Shown piece by piece: positions 19,383 through 40,654 of a DNA stretch of 64,000 bases (positions within the stretch are counted from its first letter, which is position 1; each line of letters starts with the position of its first letter). This stretch comes from an uncultured Lachnospiraceae bacterium. Lineage in GTDB: Bacteria; Bacillota; Clostridia; Lachnospirales; Lachnospiraceae. Below the pieces are notes generated by a model. It had not been told where the DNA came from. It was given only the letters and a program-made list of their open reading frames with translations, and ran no database searches. A program made the position numbers and the translations under genes. The stretch spans positions 758 through 64,757 of the forward strand of contig CAMOJU010000003.1 in assembly GCA_946616795.1 (NCBI GenBank), given 5' to 3'.

Positions 19383-22300
19383 ATGAAAGTAAGAAAGACT
19401 ATCAAGAGAGCTCTGTCTATGCTCCTCTGCGTAGCTATGATGATGACGACATTTGACCTGTCGGCATTAACTGTACGCGCAGATGAGGGTGATATGACAA
19501 CCATCAGCGGAGACAACATCGTTTTAAACGGCGATGGTGTAAATGTATCCGGCGATGAGATTGGAGAGGGAGGAGACAACAATCCATCAGATATCATATC
19601 TGATAATGACGTGGATGATGCTTCGGAAGACATTGATGAAGAAAGCAGTATTTCTGAAAATAGCATTTCAGAGAACAGTATTTCTGAAAACACTATTTCT
19701 GATAACAGCATAAATCCTGTTGGAGATTCGTTGGCCACAATAGAAGTTGGTGGTTACAAGATTACAGCGGATGACGGATCTATGCCGGATAATGCATGTT
19801 ACTTGAAATCACCTAATGGGGAATATGTGATTATCAATACTGAAGAGGCACTGACAATAGAACTGAATGATGGTGTCACTTCAGCTGATAAACCGATAAA
19901 AGCGGAACATTATGGAATGACGCTTAATCTGACAATAAATAACCTTAAAATCGATGTTTCAGAGAGTTCTTGTTATTGTGGAATTATTGATGCAAGTTAT
20001 TCGTCATTAAATCTGACAATTGAAGGAATAAATGAAATTACAGGGTTTGAGTCAAAAAACCATACTCGTCCAGCAATTTGCGCGGGAAATTATTCATTTT
20101 CGCCATCTGCAGCATACCCTGATGGTGATTTGGTAATAGGTGGAGATGGAACACTTATATTGAATCATTTTGATTGTGCATTTAAGCATTCTGATATAAC
20201 AATTTCTAGTGGATGTTTCAAATTTATAGATTGTGATAAGGTATCGTTTACTACAGCACCTGATTATAAAGTTGAGGTAACAGGCGGTTCATTTAGTACG
20301 GGTGATATCAGATATCAGACTGTTGGCCCTAAGATGGATTCTGATACCTATTATGAAAAAGGTTTTCCTGTATCGGCCGGTTATCAACTTATAGAGACAG
20401 ATGATGAAGATTTTCCTTACAAAATAGTAGAGGCTACATATCAGCAGCGATTTATGGATTACATAATATCTGCTGATGACAAAACTATATTGGAAAGAGG
20501 TAAAGATTACTACATTTACAATTCTAATTCCTCGAAAGAAATTGTAGCAATTAACACTGAAAAGCCTATAACCATCGAGATGGCTGATGGTGTTGATGTT
20601 ACGACCGTTCTAATCAAAGCAGCCAAGAATGGAATGGAACTTAACATAACAATAAAAGATATTTGCATAGATTATTCAAATGTGAAAGTACGTTCTGACT
20701 ATGCATTAATTGATGCAGCAGGATCAACACTTAATCTTACGATTGAAGGTGATAATACACTTATTGGTGATACTAATTATGCTCCATCGGCCTTTTCTGC
20801 AGGAAAAATTTATAGCACTTTACCTGATGGAGACTTAAATATTGACGGTTCCGGTACTGTTTTGTTAGATAGTTTTGATATAGCTTTTAGAAGTATAGAT
20901 TTGACAATTACCGGGGCCAAATTCAGGATTATAAATACTAATTTTACATTTGGATTATATGGTTCAAGTGTGTATGAAATAAATATAACAGGTGGGTATT
21001 TTTCAGATGCTGATATAGAAAAAAATACAGTCGGCAAGGGAAATGCATCGGAATCTAGTAAAACTGTAGGCGTAGCTGTTGCCAATGGCTATATGGTTGT
21101 TGAGAGTGGTGATGATGTTTTCCCTTACAAGGTTATCGCTACCCCTGCAATAATCACTTCATTTGATTTAAGTGAGAGTGCTAAAACTGTATATTTAAAA
21201 GCAGGTGATGAATATGATGTAGACTGGGAAGACGGAGTAGGTGGAAGATCAAGTGCTTTTCTCCTTACAGTTGATAATATAACGGATGAAAATGGTGAAG
21301 AAGTTTCATTTGAAGATGCAAATGTCAGGTTTACATCTTTAAATCCTACTATAGCTGAAGTCACAAAAGACGGTGTTGTTCATGGACTTTCTGTAGGTAC
21401 GGCCAAGATTGAAATAAAAGCCGGATACGGAAATGAGACATACACACAAGTTTGTACCGTAACCGTCAAGAAGGGCTCTATTGATGTGCTCCAGGAAAAG
21501 TGGGCTCCTGTAGACGCTGAAGGTATTCCCGTTGATTTCGACCATTTTGATGAAAACGGACAGCCTGTAGATGCTGAAGGGAAGCCTGTGGCTTGCGAGA
21601 AGTGGGGACCAACCGGAGAGATGATGGTAGTCAATTCATTCGGTAACCTTGTTGAAACAAACGAGTGGATTACAAACGACTGGCAGCTTCAGTATAGCGA
21701 TTGGAAGGACAGACCGAATCCTCAGCCCGATGAAGAATTTTGGCCTTCAAACTATACTGTAAAGGTTTATACAGCCCAGACAATTACTGACTCAACGCTT
21801 AAAGCATTGAATTATACATTTAATCGTGATGGCGTATTGGAAAATGCAAACCATTCAATCACATTTGATCTTTCCGGAAAGACATGGACAGCAAGCGTTC
21901 CGTTTGTTCTTGAAGATCAGATGCTCTTTACAAACGGAATCATCAATGCAAACAAAGATCTGAATATTGGCTATACAAAAACAGTAGATACAGAAAATGT
22001 TACCGTATCAATTGGCGAAGGATTAACTGTAAATGCATCAAATCTGTATGTTGAAGAAAATACAAGCATAATTGTTAACGGTACGCTGACAGTCAAGGGA
22101 GAAACTCAACTCTATGACAACGTTAACATTATAGATAATGGTAGTGTTACTCTAAATAATGTTAACGTTGATACTAATAACTGGAATAATCCCGGCTTTA
22201 TAGGCATTGCCAGATACACAGAAGCAGCACTTTCAATTAATGGTAATGTAGAAAGTGGTGGAGTATTTTTAAATGTTGGATTGATTTCAGCACCTGTCGA

Positions 22301-25300
22301 TTATCGCGATGATGATTTTACAAACGATATTATCGACAATGTAGAAAATGAGGGCGTACTTCAAGCGATAAATGAGAAAACAGAGCTTTTCAAATCAACT
22401 CTTGCAACTTTTGACTGTGAATATGTTAGGGTATGGCAGCCATGGAGCAATCAGGGCGCAAGTTTCCCTATCACATATTATGACAAGACTGAAAAGGCTG
22501 TTTATGCAGGTGAAGAGGCATATTATGTTGAGAATATTACATCTCAATATCATTATGGTGTGTCATTTGCACAATGGTCAGATGTTGCAGAATATGTAGC
22601 TTCTATTAATGATGCTGACAGTGAATATGTTGTAAACATAAATGTAGGAGAAGTTGAAGCATTTGCAAACTTCAAATTCCCCAAGGCTGCAAGGTCAATT
22701 ACATTTAGAAGCAATTACATATTGAAAGATGACGATGGAAACCCCATATCCGAAGTAGATGAAGAGGGTAATCCTGTATATGTAATCGGCGGTACTCTTG
22801 TTAAGTACACCGGTGATCTGACCCTTACTACAGATACAGTATTTGAAAATATTGACTTTGTGAGAGTTGATTCAAATAAAGATGAGACTCCTTATACCCT
22901 TACAAAGGTAGAAATAGCAGGACATGTCCTTTCAACCAGAGGCGAGGTTACATTCAATACACCGGTTAATTTCACTGATAATAAGAAGAGCGGTACTCTT
23001 CGGGTAGAAGAAGGCAAGCTCTTTACGGGATATGTTGCGATAGGCGGCGCAGGTGATAATGGTGGTGACTACCATGACGGAGTTGTTCAGAAATATCTCG
23101 AAAACTATGCTGTAAAAGCATATTTTGACGAAGAATACAAGTATAACAAAGATGACGGCGTAGCAATTATTGCAGGTCAGATTAACGGAGTAGGAAATCT
23201 TGAAGTCAGAGATGCTCAGCTCTTTGTAGTAACTGACTACATGACATTTGCAAGCGGTAAATATACATTTAATGCACCTGTATTTACACCAACTAATATT
23301 GATGAAGGTGCAGGTACAATTATCGTATCCAATATCAACGCAGATTATTTTACAGGCCAAAATACTGATGCAGTATTTGTGGAGGGCATGAAGACAGCTG
23401 CAGAAAACCTTAAAACTAAGGCAAAGGCAACTGTTACAAATGTAAATATTTACAATTACGGTAGATTTATAGCTGATGAAATGCAGCTTACAAATGTAAT
23501 ACTTAACGGTGCTACCGTACAGTCCAAGGGACTCTTTAATATCACAGGTATCCTCAGCAGTACAAACGGAGGAAACCTCCTGGCTACTGCAACGGATCCC
23601 AATAAGAATCTCCCTTACTTAAATGTCAGCGGTGATGTTATAACTTACGAAATGTGTGAGATCAACATTGCCAATGTTGCATCATTTAATATTTTCAATA
23701 CTGATCTTGAATACGAATATCCTGCGTATTCAGGTGTTGCAGGTGAAGGCGAGGCACAGTCAGTACTTCTTATTACAAAGACCGGTACTGCGGAACAGTT
23801 CCGTCCTCAGTACTGGAGACCTATTGATTGGGATAATTCTGATATTATGGCAGAACCGCCAATTTATGCTTTTATAACTGATGGAGAAACAGGTAAATTG
23901 TTAAAACCTCAGACCAACATTCCCCTGAGTATGTATGGTCATTTGGATGATGCAAATAATCTTGTATATGACTATGAGGGTAATTCATGGCAGGATCTTG
24001 CATTCGGTCCTGAGAAGACTGATGGATTCTATACAAAGAAATCCGGTGATAATATATACCTACTCTCAGGAGCAGATATATCAGTGGCTCTTGCTTATGA
24101 CGAGGATCAGCATGCATATTATGATGGGAATAATAATTACGTTAACGAGCTTGAGGCAAATGCGGGTAATATCATCGGATATTATTCGACATGGGCTGAT
24201 GCGGTTGTGGCAATCAATAATCTGAAGAACTCGGATGCATGCTATGAAATCATTCTTATCAATGATGCAGGCTCGGCAGAAAAACCGATAACACTCAGCT
24301 TCCCGACAGCAGCCTGTCTGTCAATGCTCCGGGTTACAGGTATAGATAATGCCAAAATATATTACACGAACGGTCTGACCCTTACATCCAATACGATATT
24401 TGAAGATGTCATACTTGCTCCAGTTAAGTTAAATGACGGAGTATATCAGGGTACAGCACTTGCAATCAATTCAGGTGCGTATAATCTCGATATGAACGAT
24501 GTGTTTTTCCCTACTGTAAACGGTGGGGCGTGTACGCTTGCCTCAATTACAGGTAATGGCAGAAATACAGTAAATATAGAAAGTGTAGAGGGAGGAGTCA
24601 ATAGTAATAATAATCTGGTGCTCACAGGCGGTATCACAAATATTGGTACATTAAATATTAATCGTGGTAAAGTTGTGATTCAGAAAGGTGACGTCAAAGT
24701 TGTTAATCTTAATATAATGGAATATGGAAGCACGCTGACTATCATATCAGGTAACATAAATGCAACCAGCATTTTCAGTAAGGAAACAACTGATATTATC
24801 CTGGAAAAAGGAAAGATTGACGCAACTAACGCTGACATTAACAGAATGACAGTTAATGGAGACGTTACTATAAAAGAATCCATAACTATAAGGGATGGAG
24901 CTAATACCGGCAAATTTACTGCTTCAGATTTAACATTGGGTGATACTATGGTTAAGTTGAAGGCAAATGGAAATGTAGATATTAAGGGAACGCTCACAAT
25001 GAATAGTGCCTCAAGGATATATGCTGAGGGACAAACATATGCAGTCACTATAAAAGACATTAAACTGCTTGGAACGGGAATGATTTATACCTGGCGTAAG
25101 AAGGATGGTTCAACCAACCTGAAGATTACAGGTCAAATAAATATGGACGGAAATTATAAACTAGAGTTATATCAAAACGCAGCCGATGAAGACGGCGATA
25201 TGGTTGTTGCAAACCCGGTTGATAAATTGTCCGTTCAGAACGGCAAAGTAACTCCTGGTGCCAAAAATCTGATTGCCAATATAGGAACGATTCCTTCTGA

Positions 25301-28300
25301 ATACTTTGATTTTGGATATTATCATTATGATGAAGGTCAAACTGTACCTGATGGAGTTATCATCGGTTCCAATGTTCTTTTAAAGTACAACGGTGGTCTC
25401 TACTACGCAGACAGTAGTGTTGCACCGTTTAACAGCAACTTTGTATATCTTGATAAAGAGACAGTCGATGAAAATGGAGGCGTTGCTTACTACGATCATT
25501 CAAGATACCTTGACTGGAATGAAGCTGTTAAGGAAATTAATTCCATTAACGATCCTACAGCAAAGTATCGTATTAACATTGGAGCAGGTGTAACAGATAC
25601 AAACCTTACTGATGCAAATGAATATGGAACCCTTACACTTCCCGCAGCTAAGAAGTGTGCATGGTTGACTGTAAAGGGTAATCAAACGTTAGATCCGAAT
25701 CCGGAACTTTGGTTTACTAACACAAGCCTAACGCTCACAACTAATGTGACAGTAGAATCTCTTAAATTAGGTATGAGAGCGGCAGTTTCGTTATCCCTTG
25801 GTTCATATACATTTATCCAGGATAAATCATGGTTCCCTAGCGGTCTTAAAGGAGTTACAGGAAGCTCGGCAAAGGGAACATCAAAATATGTGATTAAAGG
25901 ACCTTTTTATGATAGTTATACATCAGTTATGGGCAATATCAATAATGTAGGAACTCTTGATATTATTGGTACTGATGTAAGAGTATTTGGAAACATAAAT
26001 GTTGGTAATGTTGTTAAGCGCGGTGATGCATATGTTAGTCTGCAGGCAACTGGAACTGTAAACATAGGAAATATCGAATCATATGGTAATGCAGTTCTTG
26101 AATTAGATGGCTTTGCAAAGGTTGCAACAAAGAATGTTAAAGATGCAAAACCTGAGATAACAGGTATTACATCTAACATCACTATTACAGGTATTATTAC
26201 ATGTGAGGATTCTGATTCTCCTGTACAGGTAAGCCTTTATAATGCAGCACTTGATGTTGGAACATTTGATGATGCCAACTTGCTTTCGCCTGATAATATT
26301 GAAAATCAGAATAATTATTCAAATGGTGCAGATTTCCTTTATACCACAGGTATCACATTTGCAAAGGCTCTTAAGGCTGACACAAATATGATCAGATACG
26401 TGAACGGTACAGACGGCATGATTATCAAGAAGAATGGTAATCTTGTATGGGTTAACAGAGATCGTGTTCCTTATGAACTTCGTTACGGAACCAACTCTGT
26501 GCCTTGTCTCACATTTGCAGATGCCGTAACAGAGATTAAGAATCTTAATAATAAAAATGGTGAGTATACAATTATCCTCATTGCTGATGGTCAGCATGAT
26601 GTAAATGCGGATTATCCTGAGAACTTTACGATGCCTACGGCTGCTACTCTTAAGAGCCTGACAATAAAGCCTGAGGGTAATTCTCCAGTTAACCTTTACT
26701 ATGGTACATACAATGCCACAAAGAAGACGACGACAGCAGTAGCAAAGCTTGCATTTGCAACAGATACTGTTATTGAAAACGTAAAATTCATCGATGCTGA
26801 AGCAGCTGCAAATCTTGTACAGGGAGACTATCCTAACAGAGCAGCCCTTAATGTATCACTCGGTGGAAAGTATGTAACATTTGATAACGTAACATTTGAA
26901 GGCAGAGGAGTTATCTTTGATGGTGGCAAGGGTACGATGGCAATCGGAGATGGTGGTCTTGTTGCAGGTACAGAGCCGGTAACTCTTAATAGTAATTATT
27001 CCGGATGCAGTGTTGTACAGGGTGAGATTAAAAACCTTGCTACACTTGTTACAGCAGAATGTGAAACATTTGGAAGCGGCAGCGGAGAAACTCTTGTTAT
27101 TACAAGATACATTGCTGCAGCAAACGGAACTATGAAGGATGGCGCTCTTGCGACAGTTACTAACCTTAACCTCATAGGAGCAACTATCCAGGTAGATGGT
27201 TCGATAAATGTAACAAATATTATTACAGGAACAGAAACAGCACAGTCAATTGTGATGGCTGATACAGCATTTACCGTATCGGGAACTGTTACTGCAGGAA
27301 GTGCAGACAACCTTGCGCTTATCGGTCGTCAGAAAAATGATGGTAAGACACCTCAGTTGACAATCAGTGGTACGGTTGCTCCTGGCAGCAATCCTGTAGC
27401 AATCGGTATCCTTCCTTACTATGACAGTAAGAGTGAGAAAACAGACAGTTCATATGAAACTTTGGCTGTACCTGAGACAGGTTTATCATTAGTGACTGCA
27501 TCAAAGTGCACTGCTGACAGATTTGTGACAATTACAGAACTAGATGTACAGGACAATATTGTCGGACAATTTGAAACAATGGGATTTGATCCTACACAGG
27601 CATCCGATCAAAGAGGTATAGGTCTTGTTAAGAGTGGCTCTGTCATAATGGCCTTTGACGGAAGTTATATCCATATCGTCCTTTCCAAGATGGCAGATGC
27701 AACAACAGGAAACGTACCTGTTACAGGTGAGGATGTTATCGGATATTACAACACATTCAAGGAAGTAACTGATACAATAAATAACCTGAATAATAAGAAT
27801 GCTCAGTATGGTATTTCACTGCTCGATGATTTTGGAAGTGAAAACGAGACAATCGCAATACCAAATAACTCAAAGGCAGCAGGTATTTGTATTGAAGGAT
27901 GCTTTTATTATGATCAAGAACTTTCGTTGAAGTCTCTTGCAATAACAAACAATCTTACATTATCCAATGTTATAGTTACAGTTAACGGTGCAATTACATC
28001 AACGAAAGGCACGACGCTTACATTAGAAGGTATTGCCCATATCCAAGGTGCAAAAGCAATTACACTTGAAAATATAGATAATAAATGTAGTAATGAAAAT
28101 GGTGGAATATGGTTTGAAAGAACCACATCAAATGTTAGTCAGCTTAAGATTAACGGTACTGTAACAAACAGTGAAAATGGAAAGCTTTATCTGCTAATGC
28201 TTGATGAACGAGCAAATGTAGAAAATTATGTTGTATCTTCTGTAGAAGAGATTACTAAAGGTAATACGAAACAACTTTTTACAGCTCCAAAGGTAATGCA

Positions 28301-31300
28301 GGAAGATCTAGTAATCTATGTTGATGGTAGTGACTGTAAATTTGTTGATAACGAGCAAAGAACGCTTGTAAAGGCCAAGGATGCATTTTATTACGTAAGC
28401 AATGAAAAATTTGAAGATTCAATGGTAAATTTGGCGGTTAATAACGGTACATCCGGAACTTTCCTTGACCTCAACCAGGCACTTCTTCAGATTAAGGCAT
28501 TAGCTGATTCGACAAATACTTACACGGTAATTCTTCGTGGAAATGTATCGGATACAGATGTACTTGATACAACAGCTCACTCAAAGATTGACATGCCGGC
28601 TACAAATACGGCTGGTTCAATCTCTGTTAAAGGAGATGGAGATACAATTACGTATAGCGGGGATATTACCGCATATGTTGCAGCAGATGGAGCACTTACA
28701 TTTAGTGACGTAAAACTTGATAATGTAAATCCTTCTACAGGTGCACCTGTTAATACAGGTAAGATTACCCTTAACAGAAACAGTGCTGACAAGACAGGAA
28801 CAGTAACACTTTACTTTAGTGACGTAACATATACCGGCGATCTTGGTACGATTGCAGGTACAAAGGGTGTTACCGATGTTTACCTCGATAGCAATATTAA
28901 ACTGGCAACAGGATTCTCCAATATCAATGAATTGACGATAGGTAATGGAATCTGTGTTGAGACCCTCAAGTCAGATACTGGTATCGGAACAATTACATTT
29001 ACCGGAAATGCTATATATGAATCGTCAAGTACGGTTGTGGATAATATCAATATAGCTGCGAACAGCAAACCGCTAATCAATACATCGGGCGGTGATAAGT
29101 TTAAGATCAATAAAAATGTAAATGCAGCAAATGAGAATGCCACACTAACAATCGAACTGAATGGTGGCGATTATGAGAATGCAAATCTCGTATATGCACC
29201 CCTTGCAGATGCATCGGTATTTAAAGCAGCGGCTTATGTTTATGATGAAAATTACGTTTCATACAAATCAGGCAACTATGTCCGTGTAGGTAATATGGAT
29301 GATATGACAGTCAGGATCGAAGGCAAGTATGAGACAGCAGCCGGCGATGAGATGAACCTGTCATCATATGCCAAGAATTATAAAGATGCCATCGATATGA
29401 TCAACACCTGGAAGACCAAGGCGGATTATACGGTTGAGCTCCTTAATGATGTGTATGCAACAGGTAAGGATAATGCCTATGCCGCATTTGTAACACCTAC
29501 GGCTGCTAATGCTAATTCTGTGACAATCAAGGGTCAGATTGAAAAAGAAGATGACGGAGAAGAGATAAGCAGAACCGTTATCGCCTTTACAGGAACGATT
29601 AAACCTACAGTTGATGTGATATTTGAGGATGTTGCATTAGATGCCGGAAAAGCCGTAAAGGGTGAATGGGTATCGGATGGAGAGATATCTCTCGACCTCA
29701 GTTCAGCTTCAATAGATATGGGTAATGCTATAACAGCCGCGTATAACAAAGATGATGATTCAATGAATTATAGTGATAGTCTTTGGGTAAAAACTATTAA
29801 AGGAACAAAAGGTGAGCTGACATTACGTGATACATTTATATATATAAGTGATGTAATTAATGTTGGAACACTCAAAATTGATGGATATGTAAATGTTATT
29901 AGAAATTGGAGTGTATTAAAGAATATTACCATCGGATCTGTTATCGGTATAGATATTGATGTAATTAATGAAGATCAGCTGATCATTGATACGCCTATAG
30001 GATCATCACCCATGCTCAAGATTACAGGTGAAGTAACGGGACTTGATAATAGATATGAAATAAGTACGGATGATGAAACGGGGGAGGAAATATCTAATCT
30101 TACAGATTACGGTCTAATCCTTCGTCCCATAAAGAAAGATTCATCCGGAGAGGTCAGATATCTGAATGAATTAGAATTGGATGATCTGGTTCTGGAAGGT
30201 TCTGAGAATACTGCTCAGATGGCTAAGATGAAAATAGCCGATATTGCAAAAGTACCTACCTCTTGTGTGGGAGTACAGGCTAATGGATATGATCTTGATT
30301 GGTCACCTTTTGAAGTATCTGTTACCAAGTCAGGCGGATTCATTTATCTGACAAGGGAGGATAATCTCTGCGTAGATGTTATTAGAACGAGTGGTCAGGA
30401 GTATATGTCACGGTTTACATCATTTGCAGATGCTGTAGCTGATATTGATAAGCTTGCAGATAAAGATGCAGACTATGAGATACATATTACAGATAACTGT
30501 GTCGGAGCTTACGACTGCTGGAGTAGAAAAGCATTCGGAGCAATAACCCTTCCGAAGAATGCAGCTTTTGTAATGATAAAAGGTTGTAAGGATGAAGAAA
30601 CCGGCGAAATGTATGATACAAGTATCTGCACCACAAGTACATCGATAACTGTAAATGTGCTTACGGTATTTGATCATGTACAGTTTGTGAGCGTAAAGCA
30701 GAAGTATAATAATCCTGCACTTGGTTACTATTATGAGCAGAATCCCACACTGATGTCATACAATATTGCGAATAATGCTGATCTTGATCTGTATGGTTGT
30801 TATATGGCGGCAGGTAAGATAACGGGAGATACGCTTTATTTGGACAACTTTTCGATTGTTAAATTAACCGGAGGCTTAACGGTAAAAGATCTTATATTAT
30901 CAGACAATTCAGTAATCACGACTAATGGAAAGACCACGATAACGACACAGAACAAGACAGTTATCATGGGGGATTCCTCAATTGACGCGCCACTTGCAAA
31001 TGTTACATTGAAGGGAACCACCATTGGTGATCCCGATACTGATACGTGCGGTGGAAACTGTATATATGGATCCAATATCACACTTACAGGTGATACCATG
31101 TCGTATGGTGGAACAATTACTGCATGTGGAGAAAATGCTGCCGGAACAGGTAAGTTATCAATTCAGAATCTGACAATTGGAGGAGTAACGGAATACGATT
31201 ATATTGGTGGTGATGATGCTTCAAATCACGATATTAATTTATCTGCAAAGGTTGATGCTTCCGGAAAATCTCAGATCAATATCAGCGGAACTGTATCGAG

Positions 31301-31538: not shown

Positions 31539-31564
31539 AAATGGACCCTTCGGGGTCCATTTTT
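31539..31564 (+). terminator. Intrinsic terminator after P1
   Basis: AAATGGACCC-TTCG-GGGTCCATTTTT. Confidence 0.88.
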
Positions 31565-31774: not shown

Positions 31775-34700
31775 ATGAAAAGAAAGAAATTCGTAAAGAG
31801 AGCGCTGTCTTTTTTTCTTGCGCTATTAATGACATTGTCATATATACCGGAGATAGCTTATGCATATTCGGTCAATGATGGTACAGGATACAGCATCTCG
31901 TCTGATAATGTTCAGTTTAATGATGATGCATCCAATGATATTGACGATGTTCAAATATCGGAAAGTAATAATGATGTTTCCGGCGAGGATGCATCTGAAA
32001 CTATCTCAGATAATAAACCTGATAATGAAGAAGACGACAGTAACATCCAGGACGATCAGGAAGAACAGGATGATAGTGATGTCGATGAAGTGATCGAGGA
32101 TGACAGTATTTCTGAAAACGATATCGATGAAGAAAGTATTTCTGAGAATGTTGCTGAGTTAGAGGAATTAGAGCCGGTTGGGAATGATAGTTACAAGGTA
32201 AGAGTTTCATATCCTAGCGGAATTTATGAATATGATGAGAATGGTAATCCAATCTGGTCAGTGGAAAATATGCTATTTGATTCCATTGACGAGGCTTTTG
32301 GCGCATTTTATGACGGTACATTTATAACAGAAAATAATGATTCACCGATAACAGGAAGATATGAAATAATTCTTAAAAATAATGAACAGATGACAGAGGA
32401 CTTTATTATCCCATCATATGTGCGATTTTTTAATATTACAAGTGAATATGGTACCGAAATTTATTCTCTTGATATGAATGGTCATACAATAAAAACGGGT
32501 GATAAAGATAATAGTGAACTCGATGTTTATATAAATGATGTAAAAATTGTAAGTAATGCAGATGAGTCTGGTTCAATTGAGTTAAATTTTCTGGAGCCGC
32601 CAACAGGAAATGATGTTTTTGGAAAATATTTAAGTGTACTGCCGGAGAATATAATCTGTGAAAATGGAACTGAAATATGCTTGTTTGATAATATTGAAAT
32701 ACGTTCCCCGTATGTGTATTTACGAACGAAAGAAAATAATAAATTAGTATTAAATGATACAATCATTGAAACAGCATCATGTTCTGTTGCTCAGGGAAAA
32801 TGGACAATTAAGGAAATAAACGCTGATTGGTTAAGCGTTAATTGTTTATATGAAGAAAATGGAGATGGGACATATTCATGGACAAAAGCAACACTTGTTG
32901 CGGATAATGTAACATCAGAATGTTCTTTGATGGATTGGTCAACATTTAGGGCTATAAGTATAAAAGGTGAAGCGACAATAAAAAATCTGACATTGAATGA
33001 AGCACGTTTGTCAGTCGAAAAGGCATATGTTTATGGTATTAGTGAGAATGGAACAGGTATTCCATCGGTTTTTTGTCCCTTTGAGCCATCTCTTGATGTT
33101 GATAATATTACACTTACAAAAGGCCCGAGTTCATACGCTTCATATTATGATTCTGAAACTAATTCGGATAATAATTATGCGGTTCAGGTTAACACCGGAT
33201 GTAAATTGTCATGCGATTCATTTGATATGAAAGCGGGTACTTTTTGTAATAGAGGATCCGTAAATTTGGGTCAAGCGTATGTTCAGGATGATTTGATTCT
33301 TCAAAAAGGCTCATCTTTCACGGTTGATGATATTTCTATGGGAACAAGGGGAGAAATATATTTTAATGGTGGATGTACATTAAATATAAATAGTACCGCA
33401 ACTTTATATAATCCATATTTTGAAAATATATATGATAATTATTTAGGTGAGGATCGTGTAATTACTATTAATCGAAAAAATGATACTTCCGTAACCTTTA
33501 ATGGTAATGCTTGTTGGGATAAGGATTTTAAAATGTTGCTTCGAACCGTAGACAACAATGGAAGTCTGATCGGTACACCCGCAGGAACAAAAGTTTTTTC
33601 AGCAAGTTTCTTCTCATTAATAATAGATAATGTAAGTGTGGAACAAACGGAAGAATTTTCCGAATATGATGTTTTAATTGCATATGGTTCCGATGTGGTT
33701 GTCGGAAAGAAATCATTTATTGTTGGAACGGTGGAACCGTTAGGACCCAATGAGGTATACACGCCTGATAGAGAGTTTACTGAGCTCGACAGATTTGTAA
33801 AATGGTCCGATGCTGTAACATACATCGACTCACTTAATAATACAAATGTCGATTATGCCATAATGATCGAGGGTGATACAGATAATTATGAAGCGCTTAC
33901 GTTACCCAAAAATGTTAAGTCTTTTAAAATAATAAGTTCTAATTTTGAAACATTTAAGGAAGAGGATGAAAGACCGTATCTTTCATTTATAGGAAATATC
34001 ACATTAAATACAGATTTAATAGTTGAAGGCGTCATATTAAAACCGATAGCTAAGAACGGAGACGTATACATAGATAATACCGGAATGACAGTATCATTAA
34101 ATGGCAAATGTCTGTATATGTCTGACTCGGAGTTTTACAGTAAGATTGCGTCTGTTACCGGTACAGGTAATTCATCAATTTATCTGATGAGAAATAATTT
34201 GTATGAAGAAAAACCTGCTCTTGAATTGACAGGTAAATTTAGTGTGCCTGACGCTTCAATCAGTGATTACATTGTTAAGGCGTCTGATATACAGATTACT
34301 TCAGTTTTAATGATCACAAACAGTACAATCGAGTCAGACGGAAACATTTCACTTGGAACAGTCTGGGCATTTAACAAAAACGGTGACAAAAACATATTTG
34401 TCACAGGAAACCTGGCAACAAATAAGGTCACAATAAGCAATACTGTAAAAACCGGATATCCGTCAACAGTTGCAGATGTGACTATTCTTGGAGCGGGAGG
34501 TGATGGAACTGATACAGCCCAGCTTAATGTGGATAATGTAATATCATTAAGATCAAAATATATAGAGGATCAGATAGATAAAGGAAACGGAATATCATAT
34601 GGAGATTTCACTGATCACACTCTTGTGACTGGAGCAAAGGTACCGGCATCACTTTTCGTAATCGGATTTGAGTATGATTATTATTTTGATGAGGAAACAT

Positions 34701-37700
34701 ATGAATCCGAGTATACAAACTGCACGGCTGACTTTTTGACTCAGAAATCGGGAAATGATATTAAGGTTTCTGCAGTTACACCTAAAGCGGTAACACTGTA
34801 TACGACCGGATTTTTTGTTGATGAGTACTGCAATCCGGTAGGCTCATACGAAACTTTAGCTGATGCAATCGCAGAAATTGACAAACTTGCAAATGCTACA
34901 GCCGAATATGAGATCCGCATCAATCCGGAGGATTGTGAGACGGTAACAGTTAGCACTGCGAATTTCACTATGCCCAAGGCGACAAGCCTGGCAGCCCTCA
35001 CCATAAAGAGTGCAACAGCTGAACCGGTTGCAATTAATTTATTAAATGCTCTTCCGGCCCTTACATGTGATTTGACTCTCGAAAATGTAAATCTCGTTCC
35101 GTCGCAGGGTAAATTAAGCATGTCGCTTAATAAATATGCTCTGACATTAAAGAATACTGATATTGACGGAATCGTTACCGGTATAACAGGTGGTTCAGCT
35201 ACAGGTACATCATGCCTTAATATCATAGATACAAATGCGACAGCAGGTAATCTTGGATTATTTGAAGTAAACGGCAAGATTAACAATGTGGGAACTATCT
35301 CTCTTGATGGCATAAAGCTTAGCGTAACAGATACAGTTAACATAGGTGACCTGACTCAGGCTGGTGAAACCGGTGCAATATTTGAGGGTACGGTAAAAAT
35401 TACGCAAAAGAATAATGAGATAACCGCTACAACTCCAAATATAACTATAAACGGAAAGATTTCCGGAGATAAATTAAAAATCGGTGCTCTTACCGAAAAA
35501 ACAGTAGATGGCGTAAAAACATATGTACCTGTTGAGGAATATGGCTTTATCAATTATTCAAGTTATGCTACTGACACAGGTATTATAATAGCAAAAGCAC
35601 TTAAGACTGATCCAGACGGTGTGAAATATGTGACCGGTACAGGAATGATGATAAAGAAATCAGGTAATCTTGTTTATATAAACAGAAATTATGTTCCATA
35701 TATTTTGGAATATGATGATAATACGATACCCTGTCTTACTTTTGCGGATGTTGTTACAGAAATCAATAATATAAATAATAAGAACAACTATTACACGGTG
35801 GTTCTGAGAGCTGATGCAAACGGAGACGTGAATGTGGGAGCACCGGAGGCATTTACTATGCCTGCAACAGCAAAGCTTGCCGGTCTGACTATCACTTCAA
35901 ACAGTAATGTCAATCTTTATTATGGAACAGCTAAGAACGGAAAAGTTACTGCTGTATCAAAGCTTGCTTTTACAACAGATACAATCATAAGCAATGTTAC
36001 TTTTATAGATGCTGAAGCATCAGTAAATATGACAGACGTCAATTATCCATACCGCGCGGCTCTTAATATATCTCTTGGTGGCAAGCAGGTTTCTTTTGAG
36101 AATGTTGTTTTTGAAGGCAGGGGAGTGATTATAGACGGCGGCAGGACAGGAGTTCTTACTCTTGTAGGAGATACAGGATTGCTTGCCGGATATGATGTTG
36201 ATCAGTTACGTGCATCTTATGATGGATGTAATGTTATTGAAGGCGAGTTCAAAAACATGAGTACAGTATATCTTGATGATAATGCCGTACTTCTAATGAA
36301 GAGATATATATCTGATAATAAGGGAACAACTCGTAAAGATGCTTCAATGAATTTATCTACTTTTGCAGGATTTGGAAACACTGTTCACGTTGAAGGATCA
36401 ATAACATTAAAAGATATAACATCAAATTATGATGCTAATCAGAATATCATTATAGCTGACAGAGCATTTACGATATCCGGAACAGTATTTGCAGGTGCAG
36501 AAAACAATCTGGTACTGATTGGCAGACAGAAGAATGATAATGCTTTGACACCTTTCCTGAGTATAACGGGTACTTTTAATGCGGAAAGTTATCCTATAGC
36601 GGTAGGAATAATGGCTTATGATATCAATGATTATGATCTGATCATACCGGAAGTAGATACACCTGTATCGCTGCTAAGTGCATCAAAATGCAATGCCGCT
36701 GATTTCGTTACGGTCGTTAATTCAGATTATGCCGGGGACGGAACTATTGCAACTATTGCAGAAGTTGAAGGATTTAATCCGGATAGCGATGAAGCACAGC
36801 GTGGAATCGGACTTATTAAAGATAAAACTCTGATAAGAGCATATGACGGAAGCTATATTCATTTAGCGCTTGTCGCAGTTGAAAATGAATATGAAATGGC
36901 AGACGTTGCTGGAGATGCAGTTATCGGATATTACAACAGTATACCTGAAGCGATGTCTGCTATAAATACTATTAATGATAAGACAGTTCATTATACCATT
37001 ATACTATTGGATGATATCGGTAATTCAACAACTACAGTGACAATTCCGGCAACTGCAAAAACAGCGGGTATCTCTTTCCAGGGATATGGGGATGAAAGAG
37101 TTCTGACACTTAAAACACTGGTGATCAGCAATAATTTGGCCATTGTTAATCTAAAGATTAATATCATTGGTAATGTCACAACTACGAAAAACATGACCCT
37201 TACCCTGAATAATGGATCGGTCCTTTCAGCAAAGGGAACGGTAACCCTTGAGAATATAATAAACAGAGAGGGTAATAATAGAGTTGAATATACAAGAACA
37301 GCAAAGGATGCTAACCAGCTGAAGATTAACGGCAGAGTAACAAACTATAATGGCGGGCAGCTTGCTGTTAAGATGACAAATGAAGCAGGTAATGAATATA
37401 CAGTAGCAGAATATACTGTTGAAAATATTTCAGAAATCTCTAAGCCTGCAAATAAACAGCTCTTTGTAGCACCACTTGTAACCGTGTCTGATATAAAGAT
37501 TATGATCGGTACAAGCGAATTAAATGAATCATATAACGGTACATCCTCAATCGTTGTCAAATCAAAGGATGGATTCTATTATCTTCCGTCAGGCATGCAG
37601 AATACTATAGCTGCACTCGGATACGGGGACAGTGAACCTAATGCATATTATATCGATATGAACCAGGCACTGTATCAGATCAAGGCAATAGCCGACAGGA

Positions 37701-40654
37701 CAGCGGACTATACTGTATACATTGATGATACGATTGATGTAAATGTGATAGATACTGTTGCACATTCAAAAATAGAAATGCCTACAACGAATACTGCAAG
37801 GTCGATAAAGATCACGGGATTTGACGGTGATGAAACAGATATGTATTTCAGCGGTGATATCTCAGCATTTGTGGCAGCAGGCGGAAGCCTTACATTTGAA
37901 GGTATAAAGATGGTACCTGTTGCGGCAGCAGATAAGAATGGCGTCATGGTTAATTCAGAGACAAGCAAGATAACACTCGGAAGAAACGGCGCTGACAAAT
38001 CAGGAGAGGTGACACTTAACCTGATTGAGTGCAGTATAGAAGGATATCTGAACCAGATCGTCGGAACGAAGAATGTAACGGACGTATATGTCGATTCTGA
38101 TATTACATTGAAGGCAGGATTTACAAATGTTTATAATCTCACAGTAGATGGCACTACAGGAGCTACAGTGATCGCAGGAGGAAACAGTACGGTCGGAAAC
38201 CTTTATCTGAAAGGATCGGATGCCGGCTTTGTATCTTTAGGAACAGCAACTGTTGATACGATAAAGATTGATTCAAATCTTGGATTTGAAGGACCGTGGA
38301 TCGGAGCCGCAGGACCGGCCAAGTTCAAGATCAATAAGACAGTTGAATCTGAAAATACAAAAGTGCTCATAAGATTACTTGATACATCAGATAAAACGCT
38401 TTCATATGCAACAATAAATGATGAGAGCTATTTGGCTGACGAAGATGAGAATTATCTTGATAAAGATCTTATATATGCTCCATTAGCAGATACATCTGTA
38501 TTTACCGCATATCCTTATGGAGAAACAGAAGGAAAAACGATCGCGGGCGATGAACCGACTGTGTCATATAAAAATGGTAATAATATCCGTATAGGAAATA
38601 AAGCCGAGATGGTAATCACAGTTGAGGCAGATGGTTTATTCACATATGCAAAAGACTATGCAGAGGCGATTAAGTCTATTAATACATGGAAAAACAAGAC
38701 TGATTATACCATTACATTCTTAAGTACAGGCGCTGTGACAACTACGGCTGCCGGCAAGGACCCCGGAGCATTTACTTATCCGGCGGCTGCCAATGCATCA
38801 TCTCTTACAATAAAAGGTACTGTTGATGGCATAAACATAACCGAGATCCAATTTACCGGTGCAATAAAGCCTGCGGTTGATACAACATTTGAGAATGTTG
38901 TACTTAACTGCGGTAAAATTGCAAATAAAGCATTTATAGAGCTTGGAGAGGTGGCACTTGATCTTGGAACGGCATCTCTTGATATGGGTAATGCGATAAC
39001 AAAAGACATATCATACGGACAGGTAGCCCAATGGCCTGATTTGTTTGTGTCTTCTATTAAGGGTACAAAAGGAACCCTTACATTAAGAGATTGTACGGTG
39101 TATGCAGACAGTATCAGCATGGGAACTCTTAATGTAATGGGAACAGTTGATATTTCAACGAGGAGTGCAATACTTCAGAATTATTCGATTGGTTCGATAT
39201 ATGGAACAGAAGGAGATGATAAATTATTTATTGACGCACCAAAGGCTGCATCACCAATGCTAAAGGTTACCGGTTATGTTAGAGGTATGGAAGAGATAGG
39301 TATCAGACCTGTCTTTAAGGACACAACCATCGGTCATAACAGATATTACAGAATGGAAGAGCTCGACGGTATTGTCACAAATGGTACTGAGACCACCGCA
39401 GTGCTTAACAAGATGAGACTTGCTGATATGGCAAAGGTACCTACCGATATCGTCAATGTATATACGAATTTTGCTCATTCAGAAAAGTTTACGAATGCAA
39501 ATATCAACAAAGTTTCCGGATTTATTTATCTGACTTCACAGATAATGAGCATTACGGTAACCGATGAGAATGATTATTCATCTCAATTTGTGTCATTTAT
39601 GGATGCTGTAACAGACATTGATAAGATTGCGGATAAGACAGCAGATTATCAAATAACACTTAAAGAAGATACGGGCAGAGCATTTTATTATACGTCAAAT
39701 GAGATTAAGGCTGTAACTCTTCCTAAAAATGCTGCAAGTGTGACTGTTAAGGGTGAGAATGTAGAAGTACCGGGAGCAGCTAATGATATCGACGGAGATG
39801 GAAAGTGCACGCTATATACTTCAGGTACATCACTTGTGGTCAATATTCCGACAACATTTGAAAATATATCTGTAAGACCTGTTAAGAAGACGTCAAGCTA
39901 TAAGAGTGGCAATACCACCATGTATTATTATTCGAATAATACATCCGGGCTGGCAATCAATATTGGAAACAATACATCTCTTGAACTAAATGAAGCATAT
40001 CTGGAATATTTTATAAACAAGATAAGCGGAGGAAGTCTCGATGTGTATGGTTCTAGTATAGATGATTATGCCGGAATATTAAAAAATATCACGGTAAAAA
40101 ATTTACATATTCAGAATTCATATGTAATGGTACGCGTAGCAAAGGCGACTATAACATGTCAGACATCAGGATATATAAAAGAATCTAATATAGTATGTGA
40201 AACAGGAAATATATCACTTAAAGATACAGAAATAATCAGATCTTCAATAGAAGCCGCCAACATAAATCTTACAGGTATCACTACTCTTAATGAAACAGTA
40301 GTGAGTGCTATCAGGGATAAAACTGTTGGACAGGGAAAAATATCCATGGCAAATGTTGCCCTTGAAGGAGAAGACAGTACTATACAATACAAACAGGATA
40401 AAGCAGGAAAGCCAATGCTGACCATATCAGGTACAGTAATATCGGACGGTGCAAAGGCAATATTGGGATTGTATTACAGTAACAGTGATTATAAATCACA
40501 AAACAATAAGGTGATTATCTCTGTAGGTACGATTTTTGCTACAGCAGCAAAGGTGACAGATGTAAGTGTATTTGGTACGGAAAACAACTTTGTAACAGGC
40601 TGCAGCATGATGAAATCCGGCAACAATATTGTATATTCTCGCGTAATGTACTAA
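31775..40654 (+). CDS. P2: giant secreted paralogue of P1 (2959 aa)
   Basis: Signal peptide, acidic spacer and eight capped modules; the last five are colinear with P1. Both proteins end in KSGNNIV(F/Y). Confidence 0.85.
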   Translation: MKRKKFVKRALSFFLALLMTLSYIPEIAYAYSVNDGTGYSISSDNVQFNDDASNDIDDVQISESNNDVSGEDASETISDNKPDNEEDDSNIQDDQEEQDDSDVDEVIEDDSISENDIDEESISENVAELEELEPVGNDSYKVRVSYPSGIYEYDENGNPIWSVENMLFDSIDEAFGAFYDGTFITENNDSPITGRYEIILKNNEQMTEDFIIPSYVRFFNITSEYGTEIYSLDMNGHTIKTGDKDNSELDVYINDVKIVSNADESGSIELNFLEPPTGNDVFGKYLSVLPENIICENGTEICLFDNIEIRSPYVYLRTKENNKLVLNDTIIETASCSVAQGKWTIKEINADWLSVNCLYEENGDGTYSWTKATLVADNVTSECSLMDWSTFRAISIKGEATIKNLTLNEARLSVEKAYVYGISENGTGIPSVFCPFEPSLDVDNITLTKGPSSYASYYDSETNSDNNYAVQVNTGCKLSCDSFDMKAGTFCNRGSVNLGQAYVQDDLILQKGSSFTVDDISMGTRGEIYFNGGCTLNINSTATLYNPYFENIYDNYLGEDRVITINRKNDTSVTFNGNACWDKDFKMLLRTVDNNGSLIGTPAGTKVFSASFFSLIIDNVSVEQTEEFSEYDVLIAYGSDVVVGKKSFIVGTVEPLGPNEVYTPDREFTELDRFVKWSDAVTYIDSLNNTNVDYAIMIEGDTDNYEALTLPKNVKSFKIISSNFETFKEEDERPYLSFIGNITLNTDLIVEGVILKPIAKNGDVYIDNTGMTVSLNGKCLYMSDSEFYSKIASVTGTGNSSIYLMRNNLYEEKPALELTGKFSVPDASISDYIVKASDIQITSVLMITNSTIESDGNISLGTVWAFNKNGDKNIFVTGNLATNKVTISNTVKTGYPSTVADVTILGAGGDGTDTAQLNVDNVISLRSKYIEDQIDKGNGISYGDFTDHTLVTGAKVPASLFVIGFEYDYYFDEETYESEYTNCTADFLTQKSGNDIKVSAVTPKAVTLYTTGFFVDEYCNPVGSYETLADAIAEIDKLANATAEYEIRINPEDCETVTVSTANFTMPKATSLAALTIKSATAEPVAINLLNALPALTCDLTLENVNLVPSQGKLSMSLNKYALTLKNTDIDGIVTGITGGSATGTSCLNIIDTNATAGNLGLFEVNGKINNVGTISLDGIKLSVTDTVNIGDLTQAGETGAIFEGTVKITQKNNEITATTPNITINGKISGDKLKIGALTEKTVDGVKTYVPVEEYGFINYSSYATDTGIIIAKALKTDPDGVKYVTGTGMMIKKSGNLVYINRNYVPYILEYDDNTIPCLTFADVVTEINNINNKNNYYTVVLRADANGDVNVGAPEAFTMPATAKLAGLTITSNSNVNLYYGTAKNGKVTAVSKLAFTTDTIISNVTFIDAEASVNMTDVNYPYRAALNISLGGKQVSFENVVFEGRGVIIDGGRTGVLTLVGDTGLLAGYDVDQLRASYDGCNVIEGEFKNMSTVYLDDNAVLLMKRYISDNKGTTRKDASMNLSTFAGFGNTVHVEGSITLKDITSNYDANQNIIIADRAFTISGTVFAGAENNLVLIGRQKNDNALTPFLSITGTFNAESYPIAVGIMAYDINDYDLIIPEVDTPVSLLSASKCNAADFVTVVNSDYAGDGTIATIAEVEGFNPDSDEAQRGIGLIKDKTLIRAYDGSYIHLALVAVENEYEMADVAGDAVIGYYNSIPEAMSAINTINDKTVHYTIILLDDIGNSTTTVTIPATAKTAGISFQGYGDERVLTLKTLVISNNLAIVNLKINIIGNVTTTKNMTLTLNNGSVLSAKGTVTLENIINREGNNRVEYTRTAKDANQLKINGRVTNYNGGQLAVKMTNEAGNEYTVAEYTVENISEISKPANKQLFVAPLVTVSDIKIMIGTSELNESYNGTSSIVVKSKDGFYYLPSGMQNTIAALGYGDSEPNAYYIDMNQALYQIKAIADRTADYTVYIDDTIDVNVIDTVAHSKIEMPTTNTARSIKITGFDGDETDMYFSGDISAFVAAGGSLTFEGIKMVPVAAADKNGVMVNSETSKITLGRNGADKSGEVTLNLIECSIEGYLNQIVGTKNVTDVYVDSDITLKAGFTNVYNLTVDGTTGATVIAGGNSTVGNLYLKGSDAGFVSLGTATVDTIKIDSNLGFEGPWIGAAGPAKFKINKTVESENTKVLIRLLDTSDKTLSYATINDESYLADEDENYLDKDLIYAPLADTSVFTAYPYGETEGKTIAGDEPTVSYKNGNNIRIGNKAEMVITVEADGLFTYAKDYAEAIKSINTWKNKTDYTITFLSTGAVTTTAAGKDPGAFTYPAAANASSLTIKGTVDGINITEIQFTGAIKPAVDTTFENVVLNCGKIANKAFIELGEVALDLGTASLDMGNAITKDISYGQVAQWPDLFVSSIKGTKGTLTLRDCTVYADSISMGTLNVMGTVDISTRSAILQNYSIGSIYGTEGDDKLFIDAPKAASPMLKVTGYVRGMEEIGIRPVFKDTTIGHNRYYRMEELDGIVTNGTETTAVLNKMRLADMAKVPTDIVNVYTNFAHSEKFTNANINKVSGFIYLTSQIMSITVTDENDYSSQFVSFMDAVTDIDKIADKTADYQITLKEDTGRAFYYTSNEIKAVTLPKNAASVTVKGENVEVPGAANDIDGDGKCTLYTSGTSLVVNIPTTFENISVRPVKKTSSYKSGNTTMYYYSNNTSGLAINIGNNTSLELNEAYLEYFINKISGGSLDVYGSSIDDYAGILKNITVKNLHIQNSYVMVRVAKATITCQTSGYIKESNIVCETGNISLKDTEIIRSSIEAANINLTGITTLNETVVSAIRDKTVGQGKISMANVALEGEDSTIQYKQDKAGKPMLTISGTVISDGAKAILGLYYSNSDYKSQNNKVIISVGTIFATAAKVTDVSVFGTENNFVTGCSMMKSGNNIVYSRVMY

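What the first reader, a model, noticed from the sequence alone, without database searches (positions are those of the whole stretch)
19383..40654. Two anchorless giant proteins built from eight capped beta-helix-like modules
Each module starts with a cap (Y/F)x(S/T)(F/W)xDAVxxIxxL...YxIxLxxD...LP...LTIxG resembling parallel beta-helix N-caps. It ends with LxIxGxV...AxK...KSGxxI. P1 caps are near 22550, 24170, 25490, 26490, 27730, 28450, 29360 and 30400. P2 caps are near 32260, 33780, 34830, 35720, 36915, 37640, 38635 and 39570. The last five modules are colinear with similar spacings, indicating an old tandem duplication with swapped N-termini. There is no LPxTG, SLH, TM or cell-wall-binding repeat, so how they stay on the cell is unexplained. 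This may be a new adhesin or matrix-fibre family.
Basis: partly seen in the sequence, partly recalled or inferred. Interest (0 to 1): 0.72.

Follow-up and report, generated by a model that had tools for sequence, protein, structure and literature searches.

The report
Giant secreted proteins of eight beta-helix modules
Two neighbouring genes of an uncultured Lachnospiraceae gut or rumen bacterium encode huge secreted proteins, each a fixed series of eight rigidly joined beta-helix-like modules; they belong to a real but unnamed family with no known cell-wall anchor and most likely form stiff extracellular stalks that carry exchangeable functional heads.

Summary
P1 (19374-31532, 4052 aa) and P2 (31775-40654, 2959 aa) each have a signal peptide, an acidic linker and eight helix-capped modules.

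- **Cap support:** a cap HMM built only from foreign homologues finds 15 of the 16 caps at E 1e-12 to 1e-21. The sixteenth (first module of P2) is recovered by a whole-module HMM at 1.7e-12.
- **No known family:** the modules match no Pfam, NCBIfam, PHROG or PDB family.
- **Fold:** AlphaFold2 gives confident all-beta models. One module scores pLDDT 87 and pTM 0.90. Two modules score pLDDT 88 and pTM 0.86, with an ordered junction. Only borderline fold matches appear, and all are right-handed beta-helices.
- **Family size:** an exhaustive profile search finds 407 clusters. Most are giants of 2,500-5,700 aa with 7-8 modules in a conserved order, and the named ones are from Lachnospiraceae.
- **No anchor:** members end right after the last module. 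No anchor motif appeared in the listed members (the best-scoring clusters plus homologues from two other searches).
- **Exchangeable heads:** the N-terminal heads vary. The heads of the choline-binding neighbours P3 and P4 occur fused to such arrays in other species.

Best reading: a rigid, non-enzymatic stalk or scaffold for surface display or adhesion. How it is retained on the cell is unresolved. I class it as a new variant of a known kind, of moderate interest.

The parts
19374..31532 (+). P1, 4052-aa secreted giant (433 kDa, pI 4.3). An in-frame ATG at 19383 is the start implied by the N-terminus of orthologue P0004.
19374..19748 (+). P1 signal peptide (VRA|DEG cleavage site) plus acidic ISEN/ISDN linker, about aa 1-125
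19797..21470 (+). P1 head: two copies of a domain shared with P3 (aa 142-350 and 393-620), then Big_2 (aa 648-699)
21969..22451 (+). P1 capless remnant of a type 1 module (aa 866-1026)
   Evidence: i-E 7.3e-10
22554..24170 (+). P1 module 1: type 2 cap with a type 4 body (chimera)
24171..25493 (+). P1 module 2 (type 5)
25494..26504 (+). P1 module 3 (type 3)
26505..27734 (+). P1 module 4 (type 4, the most conserved type)
27735..28448 (+). P1 module 5 (type 5, short form with the internal deletion shared with P2)
28449..29357 (+). P1 module 6 (type 6)
29358..30401 (+). P1 module 7 (type 7)
30402..31529 (+). P1 module 8 (type 8). The protein ends ...FIKSGNNIVFDHVDDQT.
31539..31562 (+). Terminator-like hairpin just after the P1 stop, so P1 and P2 are probably separate transcription units
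31775..40654 (+). P2, 2959-aa secreted giant (316 kDa, pI 4.4): signal peptide (AYA|YS), acidic linker, then only the eight-module array
32285..33784 (+). P2 module 1 (type 1, divergent cap)
33785..34834 (+). P2 module 2 (type 2)
34835..35731 (+). P2 module 3 (type 3)
35732..36919 (+). P2 module 4 (type 4)
36920..37636 (+). P2 module 5 (type 5, short form)
37637..38638 (+). P2 module 6 (type 6), modelled alone: pLDDT 86.8, pTM 0.90
38639..39574 (+). P2 module 7 (type 7), modelled together with module 8
39575..40651 (+). P2 module 8 (type 8). The protein ends ...MMKSGNNIVYSRVMY.
42299..47719 (+). P3 (context): transglutaminase-like domain, Big_2 and choline-binding repeats. Its transglutaminase-like region is 30-42% identical to heads fused to arrays in other species.
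49632..55568 (+). P4 (context): lectin-like head, Big_2, Flg_new and choline-binding repeats. Its head (aa 170-605) is 34-37% identical to heads fused to arrays in five other giants.

Best explanation
P1 and P2 are Sec-exported extracellular structural proteins.

**Module structure (modelled).** Each protein is an ordered array of eight diverged beta-solenoid modules of the right-handed beta-helix type, about 240-540 aa each. Every module begins with two short strands, an amphipathic cap helix and the strand YxIxL. It then runs through about ten coils. It ends in a small beta element (LxxAxKA...F...KSGxxIy) that packs against the start of the next module.

**Shape (inferred).** Such a chain should form one stiff rod. 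At about 4.8 A rise per coil, eight modules would give a few tens of nm.

**Role of the array (inferred).** The array itself is the conserved functional unit, since P2 and 12 other family members have nothing else. In most members it carries an exchangeable N-terminal head: transglutaminase-like, lectin-like, CAP, DUF5722, or Big_2. The same heads also occur on conventional stalks with choline-binding anchors, such as P3 and P4 next door. So the array most likely plays the stalk/scaffold role of a surface adhesin. It would hold a head, or its own sugar-binding beta-helix surfaces, away from the cell.

**Retention (not shown).** It would have to be non-covalent, most plausibly through the conserved C-terminal modules. 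Otherwise the proteins are released.
For: **Shown**
- Intact ORFs with cleavable signal peptides and no other hydrophobic segment.
- 16 caps, supported by independent HMMs.
- Conserved module order 1-8 across seven giants at 25-39% identity.
- AF2 of one module: pLDDT 86.8, pTM 0.90, one helix and about 22 short strands.
- AF2 of two modules: pLDDT 88.3, pTM 0.86, with the junction at pLDDT about 91-94.
- Foldseek's borderline neighbours are only right-handed beta-helices: GH55 8e-4, EspC and pertactin 1.2e-3, then Hbp, Hap, PL6 and tailspikes.
- The family has 407 clusters, with a mode of 7-8 caps per protein. Members end within a few residues of the module-end motif, and none of the listed members has LPxTG or choline-binding repeats.
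- Heads are always N-terminal. P3 and P4 heads recur on arrays elsewhere.
- Residues invariant among positional orthologues are almost all Gly, Pro or hydrophobic, with no conserved acidic cluster.
- Composition is acidic and rich in T, N, G and D, as is usual for surface proteins.

**Inferred**
- Rod shape, length, stalk role and mode of retention.
Against: - There is no localisation, expression or binding evidence.
- Model coordinates could not be inspected, so handedness, cross-section and rod length were not measured.
- Fold matches are only borderline (TM 0.23 or less).
- No anchor or conserved partner gene was found, so surface retention is unproven.
- The conserved order of eight different modules is unlike ordinary repeat stalks and hints at position-specific functions not explained here.
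- Enzymatic activity of single modules cannot be excluded from 5-9 sequences per type.
Confidence: 0.55

Rival explanations
1. The proteins are released carbohydrate-active or carbohydrate-binding proteins. The beta-helix modules would be lyase/hydrolase-like or CBM-like units acting on plant or host polysaccharides. The proteins would work in the medium or on the substrate, not on the cell.
For: - The beta-helix is the classic polysaccharide-binding and -cleaving fold.
- The borderline fold neighbours include GH55, PL6, pectate lyases, polygalacturonases and tailspike depolymerases.
- The absence of any anchor fits a released protein.
- The window also holds a mannan-utilisation cluster with GH26 and GH130.
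Against: - There is no sequence-profile link to PbH1 beta-helix families: hhalign probability 0.2%, and Pfam shows only sub-threshold noise.
- No charged cluster is conserved among positional orthologues.
- The fixed order of eight modules is not typical of CAZymes.
- Genomic contexts of homologues are housekeeping genes, not polysaccharide-utilisation loci.
Confidence: 0.17
2. Attachment or self-assembly is enzymatic. The transglutaminase-like (papain-fold) head, fused in about a third of the family and supplied here in trans by the wall-bound neighbour P3, would cross-link or process the arrays. This would build them into a wall-attached fibre or matrix without sortase.
For: - 34 of 111 long members carry a transglutaminase-like head, always N-terminal. 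30 of these contain loose Cys- and His-containing patterns compatible with a catalytic site.
- Read by eye, the P3 sequence contains Cys, His and Asp in the expected motifs.
- P3 lies two genes downstream of P2 and is choline-binding anchored.
Against: - Most members have other heads or none, so the head is not obligatory.
- PF01841 domains are usually proteases or of unknown function.
- No conserved Lys/Gln acceptor was identified.
- The adjacency is seen in a single genome only.
Confidence: 0.1
3. The proteins are contact-dependent effector-delivery or phage-derived fibres, in the manner of CdiA/FHA or tailspikes.
For: Borderline fold similarity to autotransporter and TPS beta-helices and to tailspikes.
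Against: - There is no C-terminal toxin or variable tip. The C-terminus is the conserved end of module 8.
- There is no TPS or translocator domain.
- No PHROG match and no phage genes in the window.
- The variability sits at the N-terminus.
Confidence: 0.03

Closest known systems
Autotransporter passenger domains and TpsA/FHA-type beta-helix adhesins (pertactin, EspC, Hbp, Hap, Ag43, HxuA)
   Same: Both are long right-handed beta-helix stalks that display functional parts outside the cell. These are the best, though borderline, Foldseek neighbours of the two-module model.
   Different: - Those proteins are diderm systems that need a C-terminal beta-barrel or a TpsB partner. None is present here.
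- They form one continuous helix, not eight separately capped modules.
- No sequence similarity was detected.
Tandem beta-helix CAZymes (GH55 Lam55A, PL6 alginate lyases) and pectate-lyase-fold proteins (PF13229 Beta_helix)
   Same: They have two beta-helix domains in one chain, and an N-terminal helix caps the hydrophobic core. GH55 gave the lowest E-values (8e-4).
   Different: - TM is 0.15 or less.
- hhalign probability against PF13229 sequences from relatives is 0.2%.
- No conserved catalytic residues were found.
Tapirins and Cthe_2159 (anchorless beta-helix adhesins or binding proteins of cellulolytic Clostridia)
   Same: They are Gram-positive, secreted, anchorless beta-helix proteins that bind polysaccharide. 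They appear in the weak Foldseek list.
   Different: - The matches are not significant (E 3.8-7.4).
- From my own knowledge, tapirins have a single beta-helix domain and lie beside type IV pilus genes. Here there are eight modules and no pilus context in the window.
Choline-binding and LPXTG surface proteins with Ig-like stalks (P3 and P4 in this window; 'periscope' repeat stalks)
   Same: The overall logic is the same: signal peptide, N-terminal head, long stalk. The same heads occur on both kinds of scaffold.
   Different: - P1 and P2 have no choline-binding repeats, LPXTG or other anchor.
- The stalk units are 240-540-aa beta-solenoids of eight different types in fixed order, not near-identical Ig-like repeats of variable number.

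Membership tests
Pectin-lyase-fold right-handed beta-helix (Pfam Beta_helix PF13229 / PbH1 repeats) | PbH1-type repeats detectable by sequence profile | tested here: not met
   - No Pfam hit on P1 or P2.
- Scanning 55 modules gives only sub-threshold noise: Pectate_lyase_5 at E 0.022, Bactofilin in 5 of 55 modules.
- hhalign of the module profile against PF13229 sequences from relatives gives probability 0.2%.
Pectin-lyase-fold right-handed beta-helix | Three-dimensional right-handed parallel beta-helix | tested here: inconclusive
   - The AF2 models are confident.
- Foldseek returns only beta-helix proteins, but at E 8e-4 or worse and TM 0.23 or less.
Pectin-lyase-fold right-handed beta-helix | N-terminal amphipathic helix capping the solenoid core | tested here: met
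   A helix sits at residues 28-38 of the single-module model, and at 27-37 and 340-350 of the two-module model. In each case this is at the conserved (Y/F)x(S/T)(F/W)xDAVxxI motif.
Autotransporter / two-partner-secretion adhesins | C-terminal beta-barrel translocator, or N-terminal TPS domain with a TpsB partner | tested here: not met
   Pfam and NCBIfam find no such domain. Neighbouring genes encode none. By its named homologues the organism is a Lachnospiraceae, which I know to be a monoderm lineage.
Sortase-anchored (LPXTG) surface proteins | C-terminal LPXTG, hydrophobic segment and basic tail | tested here: not met
   There is no LPxT[GASN] motif and no C-terminal hydrophobic peak. None was found in the listed family members. 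The genome has one sortase, on another contig.
Choline-binding / cell-wall-binding-repeat proteins | Tandem CW_binding_1 / Choline_bind_3 repeats | tested here: not met
   The repeats are absent from P1 and P2 and present in P3 and P4. In this genome they occur in only three proteins.
Repeat-stalk ('periscope'-type) adhesins | Near-identical tandem repeats whose number varies | tested here: not met
   BLASTP finds no internal self-hits at 1e-5. Modules are 13-29% identical to the reference module, apart from its P1 counterpart at 44%. The eight types keep a fixed order across species.
Tapirins | Significant structural match to the tapirin C-terminal beta-helix, and a type IV pilus locus context | tested here: not met
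   4wa0 and 6n2c match at E 3.8 and 7.4. No pilus genes were found in the window.

The most novel reading that the evidence does not exclude
The conserved, ordered eight-module array may be a sortase-independent, partner-independent surface organelle in its own right. Its position-specific modules would divide the labour. For example, the C-terminal types 7-8, with the conserved GYGxYKSGxxIxYG end, would bind a wall polymer or self-associate. The most conserved type 4 would do a central job. The N-terminus would accept plug-in heads. This would be a new way for Gram-positive gut bacteria to mount large proteins on or around the cell.
Probability: 0.15. Interest if true: 0.75.

Novelty: new variant of a known kind. 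Interest (0 to 1): 0.5.

Why it matters
- **Cost to the cell.** P1 and P2 are the two largest proteins of this 2.4-Mb genome and take up about 0.9% of it. Lachnospiraceae are major gut and rumen fermenters, yet their surface biology is poorly known.
- **What is defined here.** This work defines an unannotated domain family of about 400 clusters at 50% identity, with a confident predicted fold. Its architecture is unusual: eight different modules in a fixed order, exchangeable heads, and no anchor.
- **What a domain model would do.** It would annotate hundreds of 'hypothetical' giants.
- **What experiments could show.** Working out how these proteins stay on the cell, or why they do not, could reveal an anchoring or matrix-building principle outside the sortase, choline-binding, SLH and CWB2 repertoire.

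Tried and rejected
- **Known-family searches.** Pfam, NCBIfam and PHROG scans of the whole proteins and of 55 separate modules found nothing significant.
- **PDB by sequence.** A profile search found nothing; the best hit was a GH87 protein at E 0.07.
- **Fold search, single module.** Foldseek against PDB and the viral library gave no hit below E 0.17.
- **Link to PbH1 beta-helices.** hhalign against PF13229 Beta_helix sequences gave no relation.
- **Coil periodicity.** Hydrophobic autocorrelation in search of a regular coil length gave only weak peaks at lags 2, 12-13, 18-19, 31 and 44.
- **Named genomes.** The search for related loci failed with alignments A2 and A3 because they are too divergent. 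With P2 alone it found no relative.
- **Conserved partner genes.** I looked for pilins, TasA-like proteins and small membrane proteins, prompted by earlier notes on other anchorless giants. Homologue contexts are unrelated housekeeping genes, and the upstream ORFs are not homologous.
- **Synteny as an inserted island.** In same-genus genomes the two flanking marker genes I searched for never lie on one contig. In the closest relative both contigs break exactly at the cluster's edges.
- **Invertible promoter.** Only one weak AT-rich 17-nt inverted repeat lies upstream of P1.
- **Flawed alignment.** A first two-module alignment (A4) was spoiled by overlapping fragments and was replaced by A5.
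Full report
**1. What is in the sequence**

The region holds two intact ORFs on the + strand: P1 (19374-31532, 4052 aa) and P2 (31775-40654, 2959 aa).

- Each starts with a basic n-region, a hydrophobic core and an AxA-type cleavage site (VRA|DEG in P1, AYA|YS in P2).
- An acidic, low-complexity ISEN/ISDN linker follows.
- The signal peptide is the only hydrophobic segment, and there is no LPxTG.
- Pfam and NCBIfam recognise only a Big_2 domain in P1 (aa 648-699) and nothing in P2.
- Terminator-like hairpins lie at 18986-19017 and at 31539-31562, just after the P1 stop. The two genes therefore look like separate transcription units.
- They are the two largest ORFs of a 2.4-Mb, 97%-complete MAG.
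- The mature proteins are 433 and 316 kDa, with pI about 4.3. They are rich in T, N, G and D and poor in R, C, H and W.

**2. The modules are real**

- A regex for the cap found nine sites, and an HMM seeded on them found 15.
- An alignment of 16 caps (A1) shows the motif (Y/F)x(S/T)(F/W)xDAVxxIN..., then YxIxL, LT(M/I)P, LTIxG, LxLTxD and FENV.
- Searched against the whole genome, this profile hits only P1 and P2, 16 times.
- To avoid circularity I rebuilt the cap HMM from five non-window homologues only. It finds all 8 caps of P1 and 7 of P2 at i-E 1e-12 to 1e-21.
- The first P2 cap is weak in leave-one-out (i-E 0.004). A whole-module HMM made from the first modules of four other giants covers P2 aa 192-638 at 1.7e-12.
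LxxAxKAxxxxF ... KxGxxx.

**3. P1 versus P2, and module identity**

- One BLASTP HSP aligns P1 2050-4048 with P2 1030-2957 at 38.5% identity, which spans six modules. Neither protein shows internal self-hits at 1e-5, so the modules within a protein are very diverged.
- All-against-all comparison of 56 modules from seven giants shows that the best match of module n is nearly always module n of the other proteins.
- Type-specific HMMs built only from foreign giants read P2 as types 1-2-3-4-5-6-7-8.
- The same HMMs read P1 as follows:
  - head;
  - capless remnant of type 1 (aa 866-1026);
  - 2/4 chimera;
  - type 5;
  - types 3-4-5-6-7-8.
- Both proteins share the same internal deletion in the type 5 module (profile positions 92-174). 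They are therefore paralogues that arose within this lineage.
- The array is an old, ordered set of eight different modules, not a recent tandem repeat.

**4. The family**

- A word-indexed search found only seven relatives. These are a P1 orthologue at 39% identity to P2 and five giants at 25-27% identity. A second search seeded with one of these gave 23 relatives.
- An exhaustive profile search of 1.84 billion cluster representatives found 407 clusters at E 1e-3 or better, and 222 at 1e-30 or better.
- I examined 155 proteins: the best-scoring clusters of that search plus the window proteins and the homologues.
  - Most are 2,500-5,700 aa long and start with a signal peptide.
  - The mode is 7-8 caps per protein.
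  - They end about 300-400 aa after the last cap.
  - None has LPxTG or choline-binding repeats.
- In 110 of 131 long members the chain stops 2-25 residues (mostly 3-9) after a conserved end resembling GYGxY(K/V)(S/N)G(N/K)x(I/L)Y(Y/L)G.
- Precomputed Pfam domains on homologues are only head domains: Transglut_core, DUF5722, CAP, YDG, Flg_new, Big_2 and Big-like. NCBI names them after these heads, and all named ones are 'Lachnospiraceae bacterium' MAGs.
- The family is rare and patchy. Only 3 of 401 sampled genomes of the order have a strong match. Within the genus, 10 of the 61 genomes searched (all 10 in the window's genus) carry shorter proteins of 580-1,200 aa with two caps, fused to LRR, PPC or Ig-like parts.
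- Genomic contexts of five homologues are unrelated housekeeping genes, with no conserved partner.

**5. Fold**

*Single module*
- AF2 on P2 module 6 with the 55-module alignment gave pLDDT 86.8 and pTM 0.90. The model has two short strands, one helix at the cap motif, then about 20 short strands.
- Foldseek found nothing significant in PDB or the viral library. The weak lists consist almost entirely of beta-solenoids: AlgG, tapirins, Cthe_2159, tailspikes, LpxA, ice-binding proteins and SufBD.

*Two modules*
- AF2 on P2 modules 7-8 (691 aa, 27 non-overlapping two-module sequences) gave pLDDT 88.3 and pTM 0.86.
- The junction residues score about 91-94, which argues for a fixed, ordered connection between modules.
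- Foldseek on this model gives borderline hits that are all right-handed parallel beta-helices:
  - GH55 Lam55A, itself two tandem beta-helices, at 8e-4.
  - EspC and pertactin at 1.2e-3.
  - Hbp, Hap, IgA1 protease, EspP, PL6 lyases, pectate lyases, polygalacturonases, HK620 tailspike, Ag43 and HxuA, at weaker values.
  - TM-scores stay at 0.23 or less.

*Other tests*
- A module profile has no hhalign relation to PF13229 sequences from relatives (probability 0.2%).
- It has no PDB sequence match.

The modules model as beta-helix-like solenoids and belong to no described family. I could not inspect coordinates, so handedness and dimensions remain unmeasured.

**6. Clues to function**

- **The array is the unit.** P2 and 12 of 111 long members have no head.
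- **Heads are N-terminal and exchangeable.** 34 of 111 long members have a transglutaminase-like head, and five have the lectin-like head.
- **The heads of the two neighbours recur on arrays elsewhere.**
  - P4 aa 170-605 is 34-37% identical (E down to 2e-56) to the heads of five array proteins.
  - P3's transglutaminase-like region is 30-42% identical to heads of several others.
  - P3 and P4 carry these heads on Big_2/Flg_new stalks with choline-binding repeats.
  - The same heads thus ride on two alternative scaffolds. This makes the array the functional counterpart of 'stalk plus anchor', with the C-terminus as the likely cell-proximal end.
- **No catalytic signature.** Residues invariant among positional orthologues are nearly all Gly, Pro or hydrophobic. 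That argues for a structural rather than catalytic role, though from few sequences.
- **Anchoring repertoire of the genome.** There is one sortase, on another contig, and only three proteins with choline-binding repeats.

**7. Interpretation**

- **Best reading (0.55).** These are rigid, non-enzymatic beta-solenoid stalks or scaffolds, exported by Sec. They display heads, or their own surfaces, for adhesion or matrix formation. Retention is unexplained; it is either non-covalent through the conserved C-terminal modules or absent.
- **Rivals.**
  - Released polysaccharide-binding or -cleaving proteins (0.17).
  - Enzymatic attachment or assembly by the transglutaminase-like head or P3 (0.10).
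  - Effector-delivery or phage-like fibres (0.03).
- **Novelty.** This is a new variant of the known kind 'giant beta-helix surface/secreted protein'. It differs by its eight separately capped, positionally conserved modules and by the family-wide lack of any anchor or partner.

**8. Limits**

- Synteny could not be resolved, because assemblies of relatives break at the cluster's edges.

Noticed in passing
window 42299-47719 and 49632-55568: The heads of the choline-binding neighbours P3 (transglutaminase-like, aa 419-649) and P4 (lectin-like, aa 170-605) are 30-42% identical to N-terminal heads fused to eight-module arrays in other species. Heads therefore appear to be shuffled between two kinds of scaffold.
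   Followed up: partly
window 21969-22451: P1 contains a capless remnant of a type 1 module (aa 866-1026, i-E 7.3e-10) ahead of its first capped module. The first capped module is itself a chimera of a type 2 cap and a type 4 body.
   Followed up: partly
window 19000-56000: The cluster of four giant genes has lower G+C (0.34-0.40) than its flanks (0.43-0.47). In the closest relative (98% identical flanking genes) both contigs end exactly at the cluster's edges. The cluster may be a variable or hard-to-assemble surface-protein island.
   Followed up: partly
window 19040-19056 / 19199-19215: A 17-nt AT-rich imperfect inverted repeat (88% complementary, 142 nt apart) overlaps promoter-like sites on both strands upstream of P1. 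It is too weak to call an invertible switch.
   Followed up: no
window 19480-19750, 31870-32200, 42400-42700, 49750-50050: All four giants share an acidic linker after the signal peptide, with repeated (S/T/D)(I/V)S(E/D/G)N units. The same motif occurs in several other exported proteins and lipoproteins of this genome.
   Followed up: partly
genome contig C25 (minus strand, start 10844), outside the window: A 2313-aa ORF begins with a type IV pilin-like N-terminus (GFTLVELIVV...). It may be a giant pilin-fused protein.
   Followed up: no
genome contig C23:19345-19857, outside the window: The genome's only sortase gene lies directly upstream of a 1631-aa ORF.
   Followed up: no
L010:74-652: The signal peptide and acidic linker of homologue P0006 are called as a separate 192-aa ORF just upstream of the giant gene. 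This is probably a frameshift or an assembly or gene-calling error in that MAG.
   Followed up: no
window 9678-14704 and 40683-42077: Several signalling genes flank the giant-gene cluster: an EAL/GGDEF protein, an acyltransferase_3 and a SpoIIE-type phosphatase upstream, and a polytopic LuxR-type regulator convergent with P2. They may regulate it.
   Followed up: no
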